A DNA stretch of 39,836 nucleotides from Kayfunavirus AN24P4. The position numbers and the translations under genes are program-made. Below are positions 30 through 16,587 of the stretch, in pieces. The stretch lies in sequence record OZ035739.1; one strand, 5' to 3'. Under the pieces are notes generated by a model. It ran no database searches, had not been told where the DNA came from, and worked only from the letters and a program-made list of their open reading frames with translations. Each line of letters opens with the position of its first letter. Position 1 is the first letter of the stretch.

Positions 30-293
30 ATGACGCAGATGGACTTAGAGAAGTTCCTCTTAATGCTAGATACTGAACGTGCTCGACTCATGCTGCAAGA
101 CCTGCGGGATGACACTAAGCGTTCACCTCAGCTCTACAACGCCATTGAGAAGCTGCTTGCTCGTCACAACTTTGTGTTAAGCAAGGTGTCCGTGGACGAG
201 AAGACGCTGGCTGATATGGAGGCCCTGAACGCAGAGTACGATAAGGTGCTCTCAGCGACTGAGGATAATGACACCGGGTATGGTGTTCAATAA
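30..293 (+). CDS. small terminase subunit / DNA maturase A (T7 gp18-like)
   Basis: 87-aa ORF with aaaggagg RBS; N-terminal FLxMLDT...RSPQLYNAI region resembles T7 gp18; lies upstream of spanin and large terminase genes as in T7. Confidence 0.8.
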   Translation: MTQMDLEKFLLMLDTERARLMLQDLRDDTKRSPQLYNAIEKLLARHNFVLSKVSVDEKTLADMEALNAEYDKVLSATEDNDTGYGVQ

Positions 294-354: not shown

Positions 355-759
355 ATGGAAGGACAATATTTAAGCGGTGGTTATTATAAAGTAACTATCA
401 ATGGTAAGGTTCACGGGGTTCATCGGGTTAAATGGGAGACGGCGCATGGGCCAGTTCCGGCTGGCTACGTCATTGACCATATAGACCGGAACACTCTGAA
501 CAATGAGCTATCAAACCTAAGGGCAATACCTAAAGGCGCTAATGGTGCTAATACCTTATCGTCTAGAGAGTTACCAAAAGGAGTCTACTCACGGTTCGCT
601 AAAAGGCTTAACGCTACAGTGTACTATGGAGACATACGCATTGGTGGCATCAAGAGAACCCATGAGCCTACTACCAATCTACAGAAAGTTGAGGACTGGG
701 CTAAAGAGACCCACGCAAATCTTCTTAAGGAGGTGTATGGTGTGGTTAACGTTTATTAA
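355..759 (+). CDS. HNH homing endonuclease (free-standing), possible C-terminal AP2-like DNA-binding region
   Basis: 134-aa ORF with RBS ctaggaggg; HNH-type motif (VIDHIDRNTLNNELSNLR); AT-richer than flanking genes; inserted between gene 18 and the spanin gene. Confidence 0.75.
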   Translation: MEGQYLSGGYYKVTINGKVHGVHRVKWETAHGPVPAGYVIDHIDRNTLNNELSNLRAIPKGANGANTLSSRELPKGVYSRFAKRLNATVYYGDIRIGGIKRTHEPTTNLQKVEDWAKETHANLLKEVYGVVNVY

Positions 760-3705: not shown

Positions 3706-3900
3706 TCTCACAGTTCAAGAACCTCAAGTCTCCCCATAGGCCCTCTTTCAGTCCAGACCAATAGTCCCTACCCAGTCTATCATAAGGTTAGACCGATGGT
3801 CAAGACTTCAGGTCAACGATAGGTTGTGGCTATGGCTTAGGGAAGGACGATAGGTAGGGACTATTGGTCTGTCTTTGAGTCTCTATCTGTATCAGACCTT
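3706..3900 (+). repeat. probable direct terminal repeat / concatemer junction (collapsed single copy); boundaries approximate
   Basis: Begins with tctcacag (as the T7 left end TCTCACAGTG) and ends near gtctttgagtctctatctgtatcag resembling the end of the T7 terminal repeat; non-coding; lies between right-end genes and early promoters. Confidence 0.45.
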
Positions 3901-3985: not shown

Positions 3986-4230
3986 CACAAGGCTATAGAC
4001 TTAAGGTCTAAGACATGTTAGTCAAAGACTACATCCTCTTACACCATGGGGCCGACGATAGCTTAATCAATATTATTTCAAATTACCTATTGACTATAGG
4101 TCCAGATTATGGCCTAATAGCTTCCGTCAACACGACACGGCAACAACCGGATAGTGAAGACGCCTGGTCATCCCGGTTAAGTAGACAGCCTGATAAGTCA
4201 TACGAACAACAGGCAGATGACAGAAAGTAG

Positions 4231-4260
4231 TTGACAAGCAGTAACGATAAGATGTAAGCT
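4231..4260 (+). promoter_or_regulatory. candidate host sigma70 early promoter (T7 A2/A3-like)
   Basis: TTGACA (4231-4236), 18-bp spacer, TAAGCT (4255-4260); flanking sequence resembles the T7 A2/A3 region (gataagtagacagcctgataagtc ... gtaccacat); a second weaker candidate has TTGACT near 4090. Confidence 0.35.
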
Positions 4261-4449
4261 GTACCACATCGAAACAACGGTGACGACCGACACTGAAACG
4301 GTCTACCTGAAGTCCTCTGACTGAAGGGAATGCTCTTTAACAATCTGGATAAACTCTTAATGTGCGCCGATAGCGACTAACTACAGGGTCTTTGAGTCTA
4401 CATCTGAAGGCCCTGACTGATAGTCACTAACAACCTAAGAGGATTCATT

Positions 4450-4728
4450 ATGAGACTGAACAAAGCTACAGCAGAAGCCTTTCGCAAGGAGCTTGAATCA
4501 AGATTATTGTGTGGAGTGGCGGAAGGAGCCGCTCGATATAAAGAGAATGGTCTAACGTTCAAGCGCTTTATGTGGGATTGCTATCACGGAGTGGGCCATA
4601 AAAAGTCGCAGGAAATAATCACCAGCAACAATGCAGAAGTGCAAGTGATAGGAGGATATATGGCTAACGTGAAGGATTCACACATCGAGACCATGCTTAA
4701 GAATGCACTTAAAGATGTAGCCTACTAG
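4450..4728 (+). CDS. hypothetical early protein (92 aa), first gene of the early operon, upstream of ocr
   Basis: ORF with RBS taagagga 7 nt upstream; no match to T7 proteins I can recall; position 0.3 in T7 is occupied by ocr, here shifted one gene downstream. Confidence 0.65.
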   Translation: MRLNKATAEAFRKELESRLLCGVAEGAARYKENGLTFKRFMWDCYHGVGHKKSQEIITSNNAEVQVIGGYMANVKDSHIETMLKNALKDVAY

Positions 4729-4808
4729 TGATTAACTACAGGTCGTTAGACTGATAGCGGCCTGACTGATAGTCACTAAAACATACTTAACTTTGAGAGG
4801 ATATAACT

Positions 4809-5141
4809 ATGGAACGTAACGCTAACGCATACTATGAGCTGCTGGCTGCAACCGTTGAAGCATTTAACGAGCGTATTCAGTACGACGAAATAGCTGAAGG
4901 AGATGACTACCACGATGCGCTGCATGAAGTCGTAGACGGTCAGGTTCCGCACTATTACCACGAGATTTTCACGGTGATGGCTGCTGATGGTATTGACCAT
5001 GAGTTTGAAGACTCTGGGCTGATGCCTGATACCAAGGATGTGACGCGTATACTGCAAGCTCGCATCTATGAGGCGCTTTATAACGACGTGGCTGATATCT
5101 TGGATGTAGTCTGGTTTGAGGCTGAAGAGGGAGACGAGTGA
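4809..5141 (+). CDS. ocr: Ocr DNA-mimic anti-restriction protein (T7 gp0.3-like)
   Basis: 110-aa acidic ORF; collinear with T7 Ocr ([63 protein letters not shown]); acidic C-terminal tail. Confidence 0.9.
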
Positions 5142-5296
5142 TGGTAACTTACGGTCTCTGTCAGCATCACGTCACCAACGCCCGGAGTATGGTCAAGACC
5201 GGGCAATTAAACCACGATGCGACTATGCGTCACCTGAAAGCGGTCTATGAGGGCCGCAAGCGCATACACGACAGTTTGCACGCTGAGGATAAGTAA
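5141..5296 (+). CDS. small early protein (51 aa), gene 0.4 position
   Basis: ATG overlaps ocr stop (TGATG), implying translational coupling; same size as T7 gp0.4 but no sequence similarity seen. Confidence 0.4.
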   Translation: MVTYGLCQHHVTNARSMVKTGQLNHDATMRHLKAVYEGRKRIHDSLHAEDK

Positions 5297-5409
5297 CGTG
5301 TATCATAGCCTGACCATAACGCTGACAGGCGGGTACTGAGTGATAGACGAGAGGTCATCGACTGATAGGTGGCCTCAAAGATTACCACTTGAATTAATAG
5401 GAGTTAACT

Positions 5410-6346: not shown

Positions 6347-9028
6347 ATGAGCGTCATCTCTATTGACAAACACGACTTCTCTGATGTGTCTAACGCCATT
6401 GAGCCGTTTAACCTGCTGGCTGACCACTACGGGCAAGACCTTGCAGTCAAACAGCTTCAGCTTGAGCACGAGGCATACACTGAAGGCGAGCGACGTTTCA
6501 TCAAAAACCTTGAGCGACAGACTGAGCGCGGGGAACTGGCAGACAATCAGGTAGCCCAGCCTTTGATGCAGACTCTGGTCCCTAAGATTGCGCAAGCCGT
6601 CAGGGAGTGGCATGAAGGTCCAGACGGGAAGCTGTCAACCTCTCGTCCGAGCGTATCGTTCACCATGTTAAGCACTGAAGAGAAGGCCGTCAAGGACCGC
6701 TCTCTTCGCATCTCCTGCGAGTCTGCTGCGGTTATCATACTGAAGGTCATCCTCTCCAAGCTGGTCAAGCCTGAAGGTATACCGATTACACCGATGGCCT
6801 CCGCGATAGGTCGCACACTTGAGGATGAAATCCGATTCGGTCGCATTCGTGACAAGGAGAAGGAGCACTTCAAGAAGGCGATAGCTGATAACCTGAACAA
6901 GAGAGCCGGGGCATCATACAAGAAAGCCTACATGCAAGCGGTCGAGACATCCATGCTGGAGCAAGGCCAACTAGAAGATGCGTGGGGAACTTGGAGTCCG
7001 ACCGAGGCTGTCCACGTTGGAATCAAGATGCTGGAGATTGTCATCCAGTCAACACAACTGGTCGAGCTTAAGCGTTACGGTGCTGGCAATGCAGCGGCTG
7101 ACGTTGAGATGGTCCACCTGTCAGACTTCTGGGTCAAGAAGATGGCACAACGCGGCTTCAGCCTTGCGGGTATCGCTCCAGTCTACCAACCTTGCGTAGT
7201 TCCACCTAAGCCGTGGACTGGTGTCGTAGGCGGGGGGTACTGGGCCAAAGGTCGCAGACCATTACCACTGATTCGCTTAGGGTCTAAGTCTGCGGTGGAA
7301 CGTTACGAAGACGTGTATATGCCTGAAGTCTATGACGCTGTTAACATCATCCAGAATACACCTTGGAAAGTGAACAAGAAGGTTCTGGACGTGGTGAACA
7401 TGGTCGAGAAGTTGAACAACACGCCTATTGATGACATCCCTCAGATGGAGCCACTGAAGCCTGAAGAATATGCGGGTGAGACTGAAGAGGAACTCAAGGC
7501 GTGGAAGAAAGCGGCTGCTGGTATCTATCGCCGCGAGAAGGCCAGACAGTCACGCAGGTTGTCGCTGAGCTTTATCGTTAACCAAGCGAACAAGTTCTCT
7601 CAGTTCAAGGCCATCTGGTTCCCGTATAACATGGACTGGCGCGGTCGCGTCTACGCTGTGCCGATGTTCAACCCTCAGGGTAACGACATGCAAAAGGGTC
7701 TCCTGACTCTGGCAGTCGGTAAGCCTATTGGTGCTGATGGTTTCAAATGGCTGAAGGTCCACGGGGCAAACTGTGCGGGTGTCGATAAAGTCACCTTCGA
7801 GGAGCGCATCAAGTGGGTGGAAGACAACCACGACAACATCATGGCTGCTGCTAAGGCACCGATGGATAGCATTGAGTGGTGGGGCAAGTTAGACTCTCCT
7901 TTCTGCTTCCTTGCGTTCTGCTTCGAGTATGCTGGCGTGATGCACCACGGATTGTCTTACTCCTGCTCGCTGCCGATAGCTTTCGATGGGTCCTGCTCTG
8001 GGATTCAGCACTTCAGCGCTATGCTTCGTGACCACATCGGTGGACATGCAGTAAACCTAACGCCATCCGGTAAGGTCCAAGACATCTACCGCATCGTGTC
8101 TGACCGCATTGAGGAGGAGCTTAAAGTCCTGCTGGTTAACGGCACGGATAACGAGATGGTAACTCACGAGGACAAGAAAACTGGTGAGATTACCGAGCGT
8201 CTCAAGCTGGGGACACGAGAGCTGGCCCGGCAGTGGCTGACTTACGGTATGTCACGCAAGGTTACTAAGCGCTCAGTCATGACTCTGGCCTATGGGTCGA
8301 AAGAGTACGGCTTTGCAGACCAAGTTTACGAGGACATCGTGATGCCAGCGATTGACTCAGGGTCTGGCGCTATGTTCACTGAACCAAGCCAAGCGTCTCG
8401 CTTCATGGCTAAGATGATTTGGGAAGCTGTGAGTGTGACCGTAGTTGCTGCAGTTGACGCGATGAAGTGGCTTCAAGGTGCTGCCAAGCTGCTGGCGGCT
8501 GAAGTGAAGGACAAGAAGACTGGAGAAATCCTGAAGCCTTGCCTTCCGGTACACTGGGTCACACCTGATGGGTTCCCGGTCTGGCAGGAATACCGCAAGA
8601 AGGATACCACTCGTCTGAACCTGATGTTCTTAGGGTCCTTCAACCTTCAGCCTACCGTCAACAAAGGCACGAAGAAGGAGTTGGATAAGCACAAGCAGGA
8701 GTCAGGAATTAGCCCGAACTTCGTCCACTCACAAGATGGTAGCCATCTCCGCAAGACTGTAGTCCACACTCACCGCAAGTATGGCGTGATGTCATTCGCA
8801 GTGATTCACGATAGCTTCGGGACCATCCCGGCTGACGCTGAGTATCTGTTCCGTGGTGTCCGTGAGACGATGGTCGAGACCTACCGCGATAACGATGTGC
8901 TGCTTGACTTCTACGAGCAGTTTGAATACCAACTTCATGAGAGCCAGCGCGACAAGTTGCCTGAGCTTCCGAAGAAAGGTAAACTGAATATTGAGGACAT
9001 TCTATCTTCAGACTTTGCATTCGCTTAA
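6347..9028 (+). CDS. single-subunit DNA-dependent RNA polymerase (T7 gp1-like)
   Basis: 893-aa ORF collinear with T7 RNAP over its whole length (FGRIRD, PWTG..GGGYWA, FPYNMDWRGRVYA, GIQHFSAMLRD, HDSFGT, C-terminal SDFAFA). Confidence 0.97.
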   Translation: MSVISIDKHDFSDVSNAIEPFNLLADHYGQDLAVKQLQLEHEAYTEGERRFIKNLERQTERGELADNQVAQPLMQTLVPKIAQAVREWHEGPDGKLSTSRPSVSFTMLSTEEKAVKDRSLRISCESAAVIILKVILSKLVKPEGIPITPMASAIGRTLEDEIRFGRIRDKEKEHFKKAIADNLNKRAGASYKKAYMQAVETSMLEQGQLEDAWGTWSPTEAVHVGIKMLEIVIQSTQLVELKRYGAGNAAADVEMVHLSDFWVKKMAQRGFSLAGIAPVYQPCVVPPKPWTGVVGGGYWAKGRRPLPLIRLGSKSAVERYEDVYMPEVYDAVNIIQNTPWKVNKKVLDVVNMVEKLNNTPIDDIPQMEPLKPEEYAGETEEELKAWKKAAAGIYRREKARQSRRLSLSFIVNQANKFSQFKAIWFPYNMDWRGRVYAVPMFNPQGNDMQKGLLTLAVGKPIGADGFKWLKVHGANCAGVDKVTFEERIKWVEDNHDNIMAAAKAPMDSIEWWGKLDSPFCFLAFCFEYAGVMHHGLSYSCSLPIAFDGSCSGIQHFSAMLRDHIGGHAVNLTPSGKVQDIYRIVSDRIEEELKVLLVNGTDNEMVTHEDKKTGEITERLKLGTRELARQWLTYGMSRKVTKRSVMTLAYGSKEYGFADQVYEDIVMPAIDSGSGAMFTEPSQASRFMAKMIWEAVSVTVVAAVDAMKWLQGAAKLLAAEVKDKKTGEILKPCLPVHWVTPDGFPVWQEYRKKDTTRLNLMFLGSFNLQPTVNKGTKKELDKHKQESGISPNFVHSQDGSHLRKTVVHTHRKYGVMSFAVIHDSFGTIPADAEYLFRGVRETMVETYRDNDVLLDFYEQFEYQLHESQRDKLPELPKKGKLNIEDILSSDFAFA

Positions 9029-9320: not shown

Positions 9321-9343
9321 CCTAAACTATCACTATAGGATTA
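9321..9343 (+). promoter_or_regulatory. phage RNAP promoter (phi1.1-like)
   Basis: cctaaactatcactataGGAtta; +1 about 9338. Confidence 0.75.
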
Positions 9344-9385
9344 GACTCAAGGTCATGACTCAAAGTCGTGGCCTTCATGATTAAC
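9341..9385 (+). promoter_or_regulatory. RNase III-type processing hairpin (R1.1-like), copy 2
   Basis: ttagactcaaggtcatgactcaaagtcgtggccttcatgattaac; same arms as copies at 297 and 16527. Confidence 0.5.
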
Positions 9386-9416
9386 CCTAAATAAACACTA
9401 CTGGAGATTTAACCGT

Positions 9417-16323: not shown

Positions 16324-16524
16324 GTGCGATTGGAAGTCACCATACGGAGGACACCATTAGTGTTTAAGAAACTTAAAGCTCGATACCATCGGTTCATGTA
16401 CAAATGGTGGAGCGATGAAGCAACCTGCCTGTCGAACATTCTGGGAGACCAGCGGTTCAACTCTGCGGCATGGAAGAAAGCTAACCGGAAGTTCATGTAT
16501 CACTTCTTGCGTACAGACTTCTAG
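16324..16524 (+). CDS. hypothetical small protein (66 aa), gene 4.3-4.7 position
   Basis: ORF between primase-helicase and DNA polymerase; basic; assignment by position only. Confidence 0.45.
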   Translation: MRLEVTIRRTPLVFKKLKARYHRFMYKWWSDEATCLSNILGDQRFNSAAWKKANRKFMYHFLRTDF

Positions 16525-16526
16525 GT

Positions 16527-16570
16527 CTAGACTCAAGGTCATTCACATCGAGTGGCCTTTATGATTAGAC
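16527..16570 (+). promoter_or_regulatory. RNase III-type processing hairpin (R4.7-like), copy 3
   Basis: ctagactcaaggtcattcacatcgagtggcctttatgattagac; same arms as copies at 297 and 9341. Confidence 0.5.
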
Positions 16571-16587
16571 TAAACGGAGGATTAACC

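What the first reader, a model, noticed from the sequence alone, without database searches (positions are those of the whole stretch)
4450..4728. Unknown 92-aa first early gene placed upstream of ocr
The first ORF after the genome-end promoters is a 92-aa protein with a good RBS, not Ocr. Ocr (4809..5141) comes second. The first gene to enter the cell and be expressed by a T7-like phage is typically an anti-restriction or anti-defence factor, so an extra gene ahead of ocr is a strong candidate for an additional early counter-defence function. I cannot assign it to any family from sequence alone.
Basis: inference. Interest (0 to 1): 0.6.

Follow-up and report, generated by a model that had tools for sequence, protein, structure and literature searches.

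The report
Swappable unknown early gene before ocr
The 92-codon gene is real and is the first gene this T7-like phage expresses, but it is an optional, swappable cassette of unknown function found in about one in ten close relatives, so it is a reasonable but untested candidate for a host-directed or counter-defence factor.

Summary
Observation confirmed. The window is a circularly permuted Kayfunavirus (K1F-like) genome. ORF 4450..4728 (+), with SD AAGAGGA at 4437-4443, is the first gene after the host-RNAP promoters, 745 nt from the left genome end. Ocr (4809..5141, Pfam E=3e-32) comes second.

The gene is accessory: about 17 of roughly 175-200 Kayfunavirus-like genomes carry it. Relatives have zero, one or two cassettes ahead of ocr, and in both orders. 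Every cassette is bounded by an RNase III-type hairpin homologous to those at the T7 R0.3 and R0.5 positions. In five Studiervirinae genera the homolog lies next to ocr or the SAMase-like gene. It is absent from bacterial chromosomes and plasmids. Distant relatives occur in jumbo, Gordonia and metagenomic phages.

Function is not established. My best inference is a small host-directed binding protein, most likely counter-defence (about 0.4), with host takeover as the main rival. It is a good experimental candidate, not a surprise.

The parts
3706..3884 (+). Left genome end and about 179-bp terminal repeat. The window is a circular permutation of a linear genome.
   Evidence: blastn places position 1 of Vec13, Peacock and EcoDS1 at window 3706. 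Terminal repeats of 178-179 bp are annotated in those records. The right boundary is inferred from that length.
4085..4125 (+). Host-RNAP early promoter (A1-like), -35 TTGACT at 4090-4095
   Evidence: Aligns to the EcoDS1 'host RNAP promoter' at 469-505. Not found by the consensus scan.
4216..4256 (+). Host-RNAP early promoter, -35 TTGACA at 4221-4226. The middle promoter segment of EcoDS1 and Vec13 is absent here.
   Evidence: Aligns to the EcoDS1 promoter at 764-800. The segment holding the EcoDS1 609-647 promoter is a gap in the window and in Peacock.
4370..4432 (+). RNase III-type processing hairpin (lower stem, internal loop, upper stem). It forms the 5' boundary of the cassette.
   Evidence: Covariance model R1 gives 68.9 bits, E=7e-16. 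MFE -22.9 kcal/mol, z -3.3. Aligns to the T7 region containing R0.3. 7 of 19 pairs show compensatory changes.
4437..4443 (+). Shine-Dalgarno AAGAGGA, 6 nt before the ATG
   Evidence: Sequence. Conserved in Vec13 and Peacock upstream of the same gene.
4450..4728 (+). 92-aa accessory early gene (PHROG 9817). Predicted five-helix protein with a short beta-hairpin, pI 8.95.
4725..4781 (+). Second RNase III-type hairpin. It begins inside the stop codon, forms the 3' boundary of the cassette and serves as the leader of ocr.
   Evidence: R1 gives 78.5 bits, E=2e-18. MFE -24.5 kcal/mol, z -6.5. The exact 19-nt core CCTGACTGATAGTCACTAA is shared with 4412-4430. The same stop-codon/hairpin overlap is seen in phiCFP-1, AP10, 2050H2 and EG1.
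4809..5141 (+). ocr (gene 0.3), short 110-aa form
   Evidence: PF08684 E=3.2e-32; phrog_2568; net charge -24
5141..5296 (+). Gene 0.35-like small ORF. Its start overlaps the ocr stop (TGATG).
   Evidence: phrog_5058 E=1.6e-28. Annotated as gp0.35 in EcoDS1.
5337..5393 (+). Third RNase III-type hairpin, closing the ocr-0.35 mRNA unit
   Evidence: R1 gives 38.4 bits, E=1e-7

Best explanation
The ORF is a genuine, optional class I (host-RNAP-transcribed) early gene of a Kayfunavirus. It is carried as a self-contained cassette of RBS, ORF and an RNase III-type hairpin. The cassette sits between the hairpin that normally precedes ocr and ocr itself. After the left genome end enters the cell, host RNA polymerase starts at the promoters near 4090 and 4221. 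The transcript is predicted to be cut in the hairpins at about 4370-4432 and 4725-4781, releasing a roughly 350-nt monocistronic mRNA with a 3' stem. The protein would therefore be made in the first minutes, before or together with Ocr. Cassettes of this type are gained, lost and reordered by homologous recombination within the near-identical hairpin cores. This explains why relatives carry none, this gene, an alternative 84-aa gene, or both in either order. The product is a small, soluble, mildly basic, all-alpha protein with no recognisable catalytic motif and no known fold relative. Its conserved residues look like fold determinants, while its surface varies. The most likely mode of action is therefore stoichiometric binding of a host component. 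Given its patchy distribution and its place beside ocr or SAMase-like genes in several genera, the most likely target is a host defence function not covered by Ocr. Shown here: gene reality, position, cassette anatomy, accessory status and family membership. Inferred: RNase III cleavage, translation and timing, binding mode, and counter-defence role.
For: Gene and position.
Purifying selection: dN/dS 0.06-0.26.
Family: PHROG 9817, E=7.5e-27 over the full length. All 35 diverse members of alignment A3 hit the same PHROG. There are 721 clusters, none with a Pfam domain or an informative name.
Cassette anatomy: alignment A2 and the motif survey show EcoDS1 with hairpin-ocr. The window, TM1 and yong1 have hairpin-g92-hairpin-ocr. 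HC12 has g84 only. Vec13 has g92 then g84. Peacock, T147P5 and PM129 have g84 then g92. The 3 nt after the core CACTAAC travel with the downstream gene.
Hairpins: they fold well, align to the T7 R0.3 and R0.5 regions and show covariation in 7 of 19 pairs. Model R1 finds them on both sides of the homolog in phiCFP-1, AP10, 2050H2 and EG1, and finds both T7 sites.
Accessory status: 17 records carry the gene at >=90% identity, against about 175-203 Kayfunavirus-like genomes.
Neighbourhood: always in the early region, next to ocr or a SAMase-like gene in Kayfuna-, Apdecima-, Teetre-, Teseptima- and Przondovirus, and also in Ermolevavirus PGT2.
Phage-only: no match in 5,426 E. coli genomes or 72,556 plasmids, and one tiny MAG contig among 185,579 species genomes.
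Protein: pLDDT 93.8, pTM 0.82; pI 8.95. R39 and D43 (i, i+4) are lost together in the same four sequences. D76-S-H-I-E80 reads as a helix N-cap or capping box, and H78 is replaced by N in three members. This favours structural over catalytic conservation (alignment).
Against: There is no functional evidence of any kind. No family member has been tested; none is in the Silas et al. 200-gene screen and no paper was found.
Adjacency to ocr is weak evidence, because the whole T7-group early region is only about 2 kb and also encodes non-defence takeover factors.
Distant relatives occur in phages of Xanthomonas and Erwinia (jumbo), Alishewanella and Gordonia and in varied metagenomic phages. This argues for a broadly conserved target rather than a strain-specific defence protein.
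There is no structural similarity to any solved anti-defence protein.
RNase III cleavage and translation are inferred, not measured.
In KL01 and PGT2 the gene is not flanked by detectable hairpins, so the cassette rule holds only within Studiervirinae.
Confidence: 0.4

Rival explanations
1. Host-takeover factor. The protein binds and inhibits or redirects a conserved housekeeping machine (transcription, division, cytoskeleton, nucleoid or translation). It would act like the T7 early proteins gp0.4, gp0.6, gp2 or gp5.5, and improve yield only in some hosts or conditions.
For: It shares genomic class and size with known T7 takeover proteins (T7 early region; roles from established T7 literature, my own knowledge). 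The family spans phages of Enterobacteria, Xanthomonas, Alishewanella and Gordonia, which fits a universally conserved target. A mildly basic protein is compatible with binding nucleic-acid-associated machinery. Distant members sit in long arrays of small early-type ORFs without known anti-defence neighbours.
Against: It is present in only about 8-10% of close relatives, which is unusual for a generally useful takeover function. It has no similarity to any known takeover protein. No toxicity data exist.
Confidence: 0.3
2. Nucleic-acid-binding regulator. The protein is a small winged-helix-like or RNA-binding protein that modulates early phage or host gene expression or mRNA stability.
For: The order of secondary-structure elements (alpha1-4, beta-hairpin, alpha5) matches ArsR/SmtB-type winged-helix proteins. 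There are very weak sequence hits to ArsR/CzrA repressors over residues 67-88 (E 0.66-0.87). Net charge is positive.
Confidence: 0.1
3. Sponge or small enzyme acting on a small molecule, for example an immune signalling nucleotide. Its conserved polar residues (Y30, R39, W42, D43, D76, H78, E80, T81) would form a ligand site.
For: A set of polar and aromatic residues is conserved over very distant phages. Its size and helical nature resemble some known sponges (my own knowledge, not tested).
Against: R39 and D43 behave as a co-varying intrahelical pair. H78 tolerates Asn and Ala, and the D-S-H-I-E stretch fits a helix cap. There is no structural match to any solved sponge or enzyme. Model coordinates could not be inspected for a pocket.
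Confidence: 0.08
4. Selfish or near-neutral passenger. The cassette persists because recombination at the repeated hairpins spreads it, and it gives the phage little benefit. A related possibility is that it acts against competing phages (superinfection exclusion).
For: Cassette mobility and presence/absence polymorphism. GC is lower than the genome (0.444 vs 0.499).
Against: There is clear purifying selection and full-length conservation across genera at 48-61% identity. It has a strong RBS and occupies the first-expressed slot of a 40-kb genome under tight size constraint.
Confidence: 0.07

Closest known systems
T7-group class I early mRNA units (genes 0.3-0.7 separated by RNase III sites R0.3, R0.5 and others)
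   Same: It lies downstream of the host-RNAP promoters at the left end. It is bounded by hairpins with a lower stem, internal loop and upper stem. These hairpins align to, and share covariation with, the T7 regions at record 852-904 and 1427-1481. Those regions contain the R0.3 and R0.5 cleavage positions as I recall them from Dunn & Studier. The product is small and is made in the first minutes.
   Different: T7 itself has no gene ahead of 0.3 and no homolog of this protein (T7 is not among the 61 records). Here the unit is an optional insertion, and its order relative to another cassette varies.
Ocr (gp0.3) and T3-type SAMase, the known first-expressed counter-defence genes of T7-like phages
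   Same: Same operon and neighbouring position. It is adjacent to ocr in Kayfuna-, Apdecima-, Teetre- and Teseptimavirus, and to a SAMase-like gene in Przondovirus, Teetrevirus 2050H2 and Ermolevavirus.
   Different: No sequence or structural similarity. Ocr is a highly acidic DNA mimic (net -24), whereas this protein is basic (+2.8). Its function is untested.
PHROG 9817 (phage protein family of unknown function)
   Same: Full-length match, E=7.5e-27. All sampled relatives match the same profile.
   Different: Nothing. It is a member, but the family carries no functional information.
PeSL 'mobile regulatory cassettes' of T4-type phages (promoter-early stem-loop motifs flanking shuffled small ORFs; Arbiol et al. 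2010, recalled from memory and not checked here)
   Same: Small early ORFs of unknown function are flanked by a repeated regulatory stem-loop. The stem-loop appears to act as the recombination substrate, giving presence/absence and order polymorphism among close relatives.
   Different: Here the repeat is an RNase III-type processing hairpin without its own promoter. The array is only 0-2 cassettes long and sits at the very first expressed position.
Phage accessory regions and anti-defence islands (Silas et al. 2023 bioRxiv 10.1101/2023.04.06.535777; plasmid leading regions, PMC11541004)
   Same: A variable slot between conserved flanks, next to a known counter-defence gene and filled with 50-100-aa genes.
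   Different: This family was not among the genes tested there.

Membership tests
PHROG 9817 | Significant full-length match to the family profile | tested here: met
   E=7.5e-27, residues 1-92 vs profile 1-93 of 94. 35 of 35 diverse relatives match.
T7-type class I early gene unit | Located between the left-end host-RNAP promoters and the phage RNAP gene, on the same strand | tested here: met
   Promoters at about 4090 and 4221 by homology to EcoDS1. RNAP gene at 6347..9028.
T7-type class I early gene unit | Bounded by RNase III-type hairpins homologous to T7 R sites | tested here: met
   R1 hits at 4370-4432 and 4725-4781 (E<=7e-16). The same model finds the T7 R0.3 and R0.5 regions. Covariation is seen in 7 of 19 pairs.
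T7-type class I early gene unit | Actual cleavage by host RNase III and early expression | not testable with these tools
   Needs RNA end mapping in wild-type and rnc hosts, plus time-resolved RNA-seq or proteomics.
Ocr / DNA-mimic anti-restriction proteins (PF08684) | Profile match and a strongly acidic, DNA-like surface | tested here: not met
   No Pfam hit. pI 8.95, net charge +2.8, versus -24 for the window's Ocr.
Structurally characterised anti-defence proteins (any with a PDB entry up to April 2026) | Fold similarity to a solved anti-defence protein | tested here: not met
Functional anti-defence protein (any) | Rescues a phage from, or inhibits, a defined defence system | not testable with these tools
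ArsR/SmtB-type winged-helix DNA-binding proteins | wHTH three-dimensional fold, not only the order of elements | tested here: not met
   The element order matches, but no wHTH hit has meaningful scores. Sequence hits have E 0.66-0.87.
2H phosphoesterase / CNPase C-terminal domain (note in the Hafnia phage yong1 record) | Profile match and two H-x-T/S-x motifs | tested here: not met
No Pfam hit at E<=1. The only conserved His lies in D-S-H-I-E-T, which is H-x-x-T, and it is replaced by Asn in some members.
Stem-loop-bounded mobile early-gene cassettes (PeSL-like) | Repeated regulatory stem-loop on both sides, with presence/absence and order polymorphism among close relatives | tested here: met
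Stem-loop-bounded mobile early-gene cassettes (PeSL-like) | Each cassette carries its own early promoter | tested here: not met
   No promoter-like site lies between 4260 and 4450 or in the 4729-4808 spacer. The cassettes rely on the upstream promoters.

The most novel reading that the evidence does not exclude
The protein founds a new counter-defence (or immune-evasion) family with a previously unseen small helical fold. The family is spread from T7-like coliphages to jumbo Xanthomonas phages and Gordonia phages. In Studiervirinae it is carried by an RNase III-hairpin-bounded cassette system that lets these phages swap which gene is expressed first on entry. That would be a miniature 'first-strike' gene-exchange site analogous to T4 PeSL cassettes or integron arrays.
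Probability: 0.25. Interest if true: 0.7.

Novelty: new member of a known kind. Interest (0 to 1): 0.4.

Why it matters
The first proteins a T7-like phage makes help decide whether infection survives host immunity, and Ocr alone does not cover most defence systems. This family is under selection, confidently folded and structurally orphan. It occupies the slot ahead of Ocr in a minority of otherwise near-identical phages. Natural isogenic-like pairs with and without the gene already exist (for example EcoDS1 or HC12 versus the window phage, TM1 or yong1), so the question is directly testable. The hairpin-bounded cassette anatomy also gives a simple rule for finding other swappable first-expressed genes in Studiervirinae, and a natural site for engineering payloads into therapeutic K1F-like phages. 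If the gene turns out to be a routine takeover factor or dispensable, the finding is ordinary: unknown small ORFs in phage early regions are very common.

Tried and rejected
1. Sequence profiles. Pfam gave only sub-threshold noise (DUF5680 E 0.08, PspC E 0.24) and nothing for 35 relatives. NCBIfam and PADLOC gave nothing. PDB sequence profiles gave E>=0.17.

3. Winged-helix idea. Rejected on fold scores.

4. CNPase / 2H phosphoesterase note in a GenBank record. Not reproducible.

5. Fusion or 'Rosetta stone' clues. P0080 (220 aa) has no Pfam domain and looks like an extended start. P0088 carries only a weak C-terminal zinc-ribbon-like tail. Neither is informative.

6. Gene-neighbourhood clues from distant members. 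They show only arrays of unknown small ORFs.

7. Literature. Silas et al. supplements contain no family member by motif search. Accession and PHROG id searches returned no papers. General searches returned nothing on this family.

8. Searches for copies in bacteria, E. coli genomes (including possible spacers) and plasmids. Essentially none.

9. The search for related loci. With the close alignment it returned only 7 viral loci, so annotated phage records were used instead.

Full report
**What the window is**

The 1.5 kb around the finding is 99.4% identical to Kayfunavirus AN17P1 and 92-95% identical to Vec13, Peacock, LS2 and other K1F-like phages. The window is a whole Kayfunavirus genome written as a circular permutation. 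Position 1 of three relatives' linear genomes maps to window 3706. The small terminase subunit, an HNH endonuclease gene and the large terminase lie before that point. The RNA polymerase gene is at 6347..9028.

**Checking the observation**

- ORF 4450..4728 (+) encodes 92 aa from an ATG. AAGAGGA precedes it at 4437-4443.
- The next gene, 4809..5141, is Ocr (PF08684 E=3e-32).
- The promoters annotated in EcoDS1 align to window positions about 4090 (TTGACT) and 4221 (TTGACA). The simple consensus scan missed them because their -10 boxes are weak.
- The ORF is therefore the first gene behind the early promoters, 745 nt from the left end. In T7 this is roughly the part that enters before transcription pulls in the rest (my own knowledge of T7 entry).
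- The gene is under purifying selection. dN/dS is 0.06-0.26 against six close relatives and about 0.12-0.26 where dS is not saturated in other genera.

**Anatomy: a hairpin-bounded cassette**

The ORF is flanked by two copies of a roughly 55-60-nt element that share an exact 19-nt core, CCTGACTGATAGTCACTAA (4412-4430 and 4761-4779).

- Both copies fold into a lower stem, an asymmetric internal loop and an upper stem (-22.9 and -24.5 kcal/mol; z -3.3 and -6.5).
- They align with the T7 sequences at record 852-904 and 1427-1481, and these fold the same way. As I recall from Dunn & Studier, those intervals contain the RNase III cleavage sites R0.3 (nt 890) and R0.5 (nt 1468). That T7 early RNAs are cut by RNase III is the classical result cited in PMC5371410.
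- RNAalifold on eight copies gives 19 pairs, 7 of them with compensatory changes.
- A covariance model built from these copies scores the two window copies at 69-79 bits. It also finds further + strand sites at 291-348, 5337-5393, 9335-9392 and 16521-16575, as expected for a T7-like set of processing sites.

Comparison of relatives gives the following arrangements ahead of ocr:

| Phage | Arrangement |
|---|---|
| EcoDS1 | hairpin - ocr |
| window, TM1, yong1 | hairpin - g92 - hairpin - ocr |
| HC12 | hairpin - g84 - hairpin - ocr |
| Vec13 | hairpin - g92 - hairpin - g84 - hairpin - ocr |
| Peacock, T147P5, PM129 | hairpin - g84 - hairpin - g92 - hairpin - ocr |

The few bases after the core travel with the downstream gene, and each cassette ends in the same type of hairpin, which starts inside the stop codon. 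The same stop-codon/hairpin overlap and two-sided flanking hold for the homologs in phiCFP-1, AP10, 2050H2 and EG1, at only 52-60% protein identity.

The unit is therefore RBS + ORF + 3' hairpin. The near-identical hairpin cores are the obvious substrate for the homologous recombination that adds, removes and reorders cassettes. The recombination mechanism itself is inferred.

**Distribution**

- tblastn finds the protein in 61 of 50,697 phage records, all T7-like. Seventeen carry it at >=90% identity (Kayfunavirus).
- About 175 records have a >=90% identical RNAP gene and 203 have the leader. About 8-10% of close relatives therefore carry the gene.
- In other genera the homolog is always in the early region. 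It lies after ocr-0.4 in Apdecimavirus AP10, Teetrevirus phiCFP-1 and Teseptimavirus EG1, and after a SAMase-like gene in Teetrevirus 2050H2. It lies just before a SAMase-like gene in Przondovirus Oda and Ermolevavirus PGT2. In the unclassified KL01 it sits among unknown small genes.
- It is absent from 5,426 complete E. coli genomes and from 72,556 plasmids. It is practically absent from one genome each of 185,579 bacterial species, where the single hit is a 2.7-kb MAG contig.
- Profile searches extend the family to 31 representatives at 50% clustering and 721 clusters at 90%. None has a Pfam domain or an informative name.
- Members occur in roughly 40-60-kb and larger metagenomic phage contigs, inside arrays of small unknown ORFs. 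They also occur in jumbo Xanthomonas/Erwinia phages, Alishewanella myophages and Gordonia phages. BFVD suggests an Enterococcus siphophage member.

**The protein**

- It matches PHROG 9817, 'unknown function', as do all 35 diverse relatives.
- It has no Pfam, NCBIfam, PADLOC or PDB-sequence match.
- With a shallow alignment AlphaFold was unconvincing (pLDDT 60). With 35 diverse homologs it gave pLDDT 93.8 and pTM 0.82. The model has helices at 5-18, 23-32, 37-48, 50-60 and 76-86, and a short hairpin at about 64-73.
- It is mildly basic (pI 8.95, net +2.8), as are most relatives, whereas the window's Ocr has net charge -24. It is not a DNA mimic.
- The conserved positions are Y30, G-L-S/T-x-x-R-F-x-W-D (34-43), G-G-Y (68-70) and N/K-D-S-H-I-E-T-M-L (75-83).
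- These look structural. T36/S and D76/S77 sit at helix N-termini, with E80 completing a capping box. R39 and D43 are i, i+4 partners that are lost together in the same four sequences. H78 is replaced by Asn in three members.
- I see no evidence for an active site, but I could not inspect coordinates.

**How it most likely works**

*Expression (inferred from homology with T7).* Host RNAP starts at the early promoters. RNase III cuts in the two hairpins and releases a monocistronic message with a stabilising 3' stem. The protein appears in the first minutes, ahead of or together with Ocr.

*Function (inference only).* It is a small single-domain protein without catalytic signatures. It has a conserved core and a variable surface, is restricted to phages and is optional among near-identical genomes. 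It also sits next to the known counter-defence gene in several genera. This profile is what is seen for stoichiometric inhibitors of host proteins.

- I rate counter-defence as the single most likely role, at about 0.4.
- The main rival is host takeover of a conserved machine, at about 0.3. It is favoured by the very wide host range of the extended family.
- Nucleic-acid binding shares the order of secondary-structure elements with ArsR-type winged helices, but the fold comparison does not support it.
- The remaining minor rivals are a small-molecule sponge or enzyme and a near-neutral passenger.

**Comparison with what is known**

- It is a bona fide member of PHROG 9817 and of the class of T7-type early mRNA units.
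- It is not a member of the Ocr family, the winged-helix family, the CNPase family (a note in the Hafnia phage yong1 record is not reproducible) or any structurally characterised anti-defence family.
- The cassette behaviour resembles the PeSL 'mobile regulatory cassettes' of T4-type phages (recalled, not checked). The difference is that it uses an RNase III-type hairpin without its own promoter.
- It fits the 'accessory region next to a known counter-defence gene' pattern that Silas et al. exploited. No family member was in their tested set, and I found no paper on the family.

**Verdict**

The counter-defence interpretation is plausible but unproven.

The gene is not peculiar to this phage. 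It is a known, annotated 'hypothetical protein' family occupying a known-variable slot. What this analysis adds is the following:

- evidence of selection;
- a confident orphan-fold model;
- the accessory frequency;
- the hairpin-bounded cassette anatomy, with order polymorphism;
- the recurrent adjacency to ocr or SAMase-like genes.

Interest is moderate (0.4). It is a well-defined experimental candidate with natural with/without phage pairs, but a specialist would not find it surprising.

Noticed in passing
Relatives: L001 (Vec13) 1268-1522; L002 (Peacock) 767-1021; L028 (HC12) 797-1051. Absent from the window.: A second, unrelated 84-aa cassette gene (MDTMKHLSTITNHNEVF..., phrog_10124, unknown function, pI 9.45) alternates or combines with the 92-aa gene ahead of ocr, in either order. 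It is bounded by the same hairpins.
   Followed up: partly
window 4216-4256 versus L003 (EcoDS1) 609-647 and the matching Vec13 segment: The window and Peacock lack the roughly 170-nt segment that carries the middle of the three host promoters annotated in EcoDS1. This phage therefore appears to have two rather than three early host promoters.
   Followed up: partly
window 355..759 (+), with an RNase III-type hairpin hit at 291-348: An HNH endonuclease gene (PF13392 E=2e-16) sits between the small terminase subunit gene (30..293, PF11123) and the lysis/terminase region. It is probably a homing endonuclease insertion. The processing-hairpin model scores 45.9 bits just upstream of it.
   Followed up: partly
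window 4015..4230 (+): A 71-aa ORF (MLVKDYILLHHGADD...) is annotated as a CDS in Peacock and HC12-like records. It spans the conserved host promoters and is truncated in Vec13 and EcoDS1. It is probably a spurious call, conserved only because the promoter DNA is conserved.
   Followed up: partly
window 3754-3772 and 3853-3871: A perfect 19-nt inverted repeat (CAGACCAATAGTCCCTACC / GGTAGGGACTATTGGTCTG), 80 nt apart, lies inside the presumed terminal repeat (3706-3884) near the left genome end. Its function is unknown.
   Followed up: no
window 4809..5141 versus L024, L025, L027 and L028: Ocr comes in a short form (110-114 aa: window, Vec13, Peacock, EcoDS1, TM1) and a long form (167-169 aa: T147P5, PM129, yong1, HC12) among close relatives. 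The 92-aa gene occurs with both.
   Followed up: no
window 5337-5393, 9335-9392 and 16521-16575 (+): Further matches to the RNase III-type hairpin model (35-39 bits), all on the coding strand. They probably correspond to other T7-like processing sites, after gene 0.35, after the RNAP gene and within the middle genes.
   Followed up: no
Phage records MT350293.1 (H79) and MK610268.1 (L027): 'Enterococcus phage EFA-2' is a 39,964-bp record carrying a homolog that is 54.7% identical to the query (tblastn), among hits that are otherwise all T7-like enterobacterial phages, so the host label looks doubtful. The Hafnia phage yong1 record annotates the 92-aa protein with 'CNP C-terminal domain', which no profile search here reproduces.
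   Followed up: partly
L031 8279-9040 (metagenomic 62.5-kb phage contig): A pentapeptide-repeat protein, a class that includes DNA mimics, lies in the same small-gene array as a distant family member.
   Followed up: no
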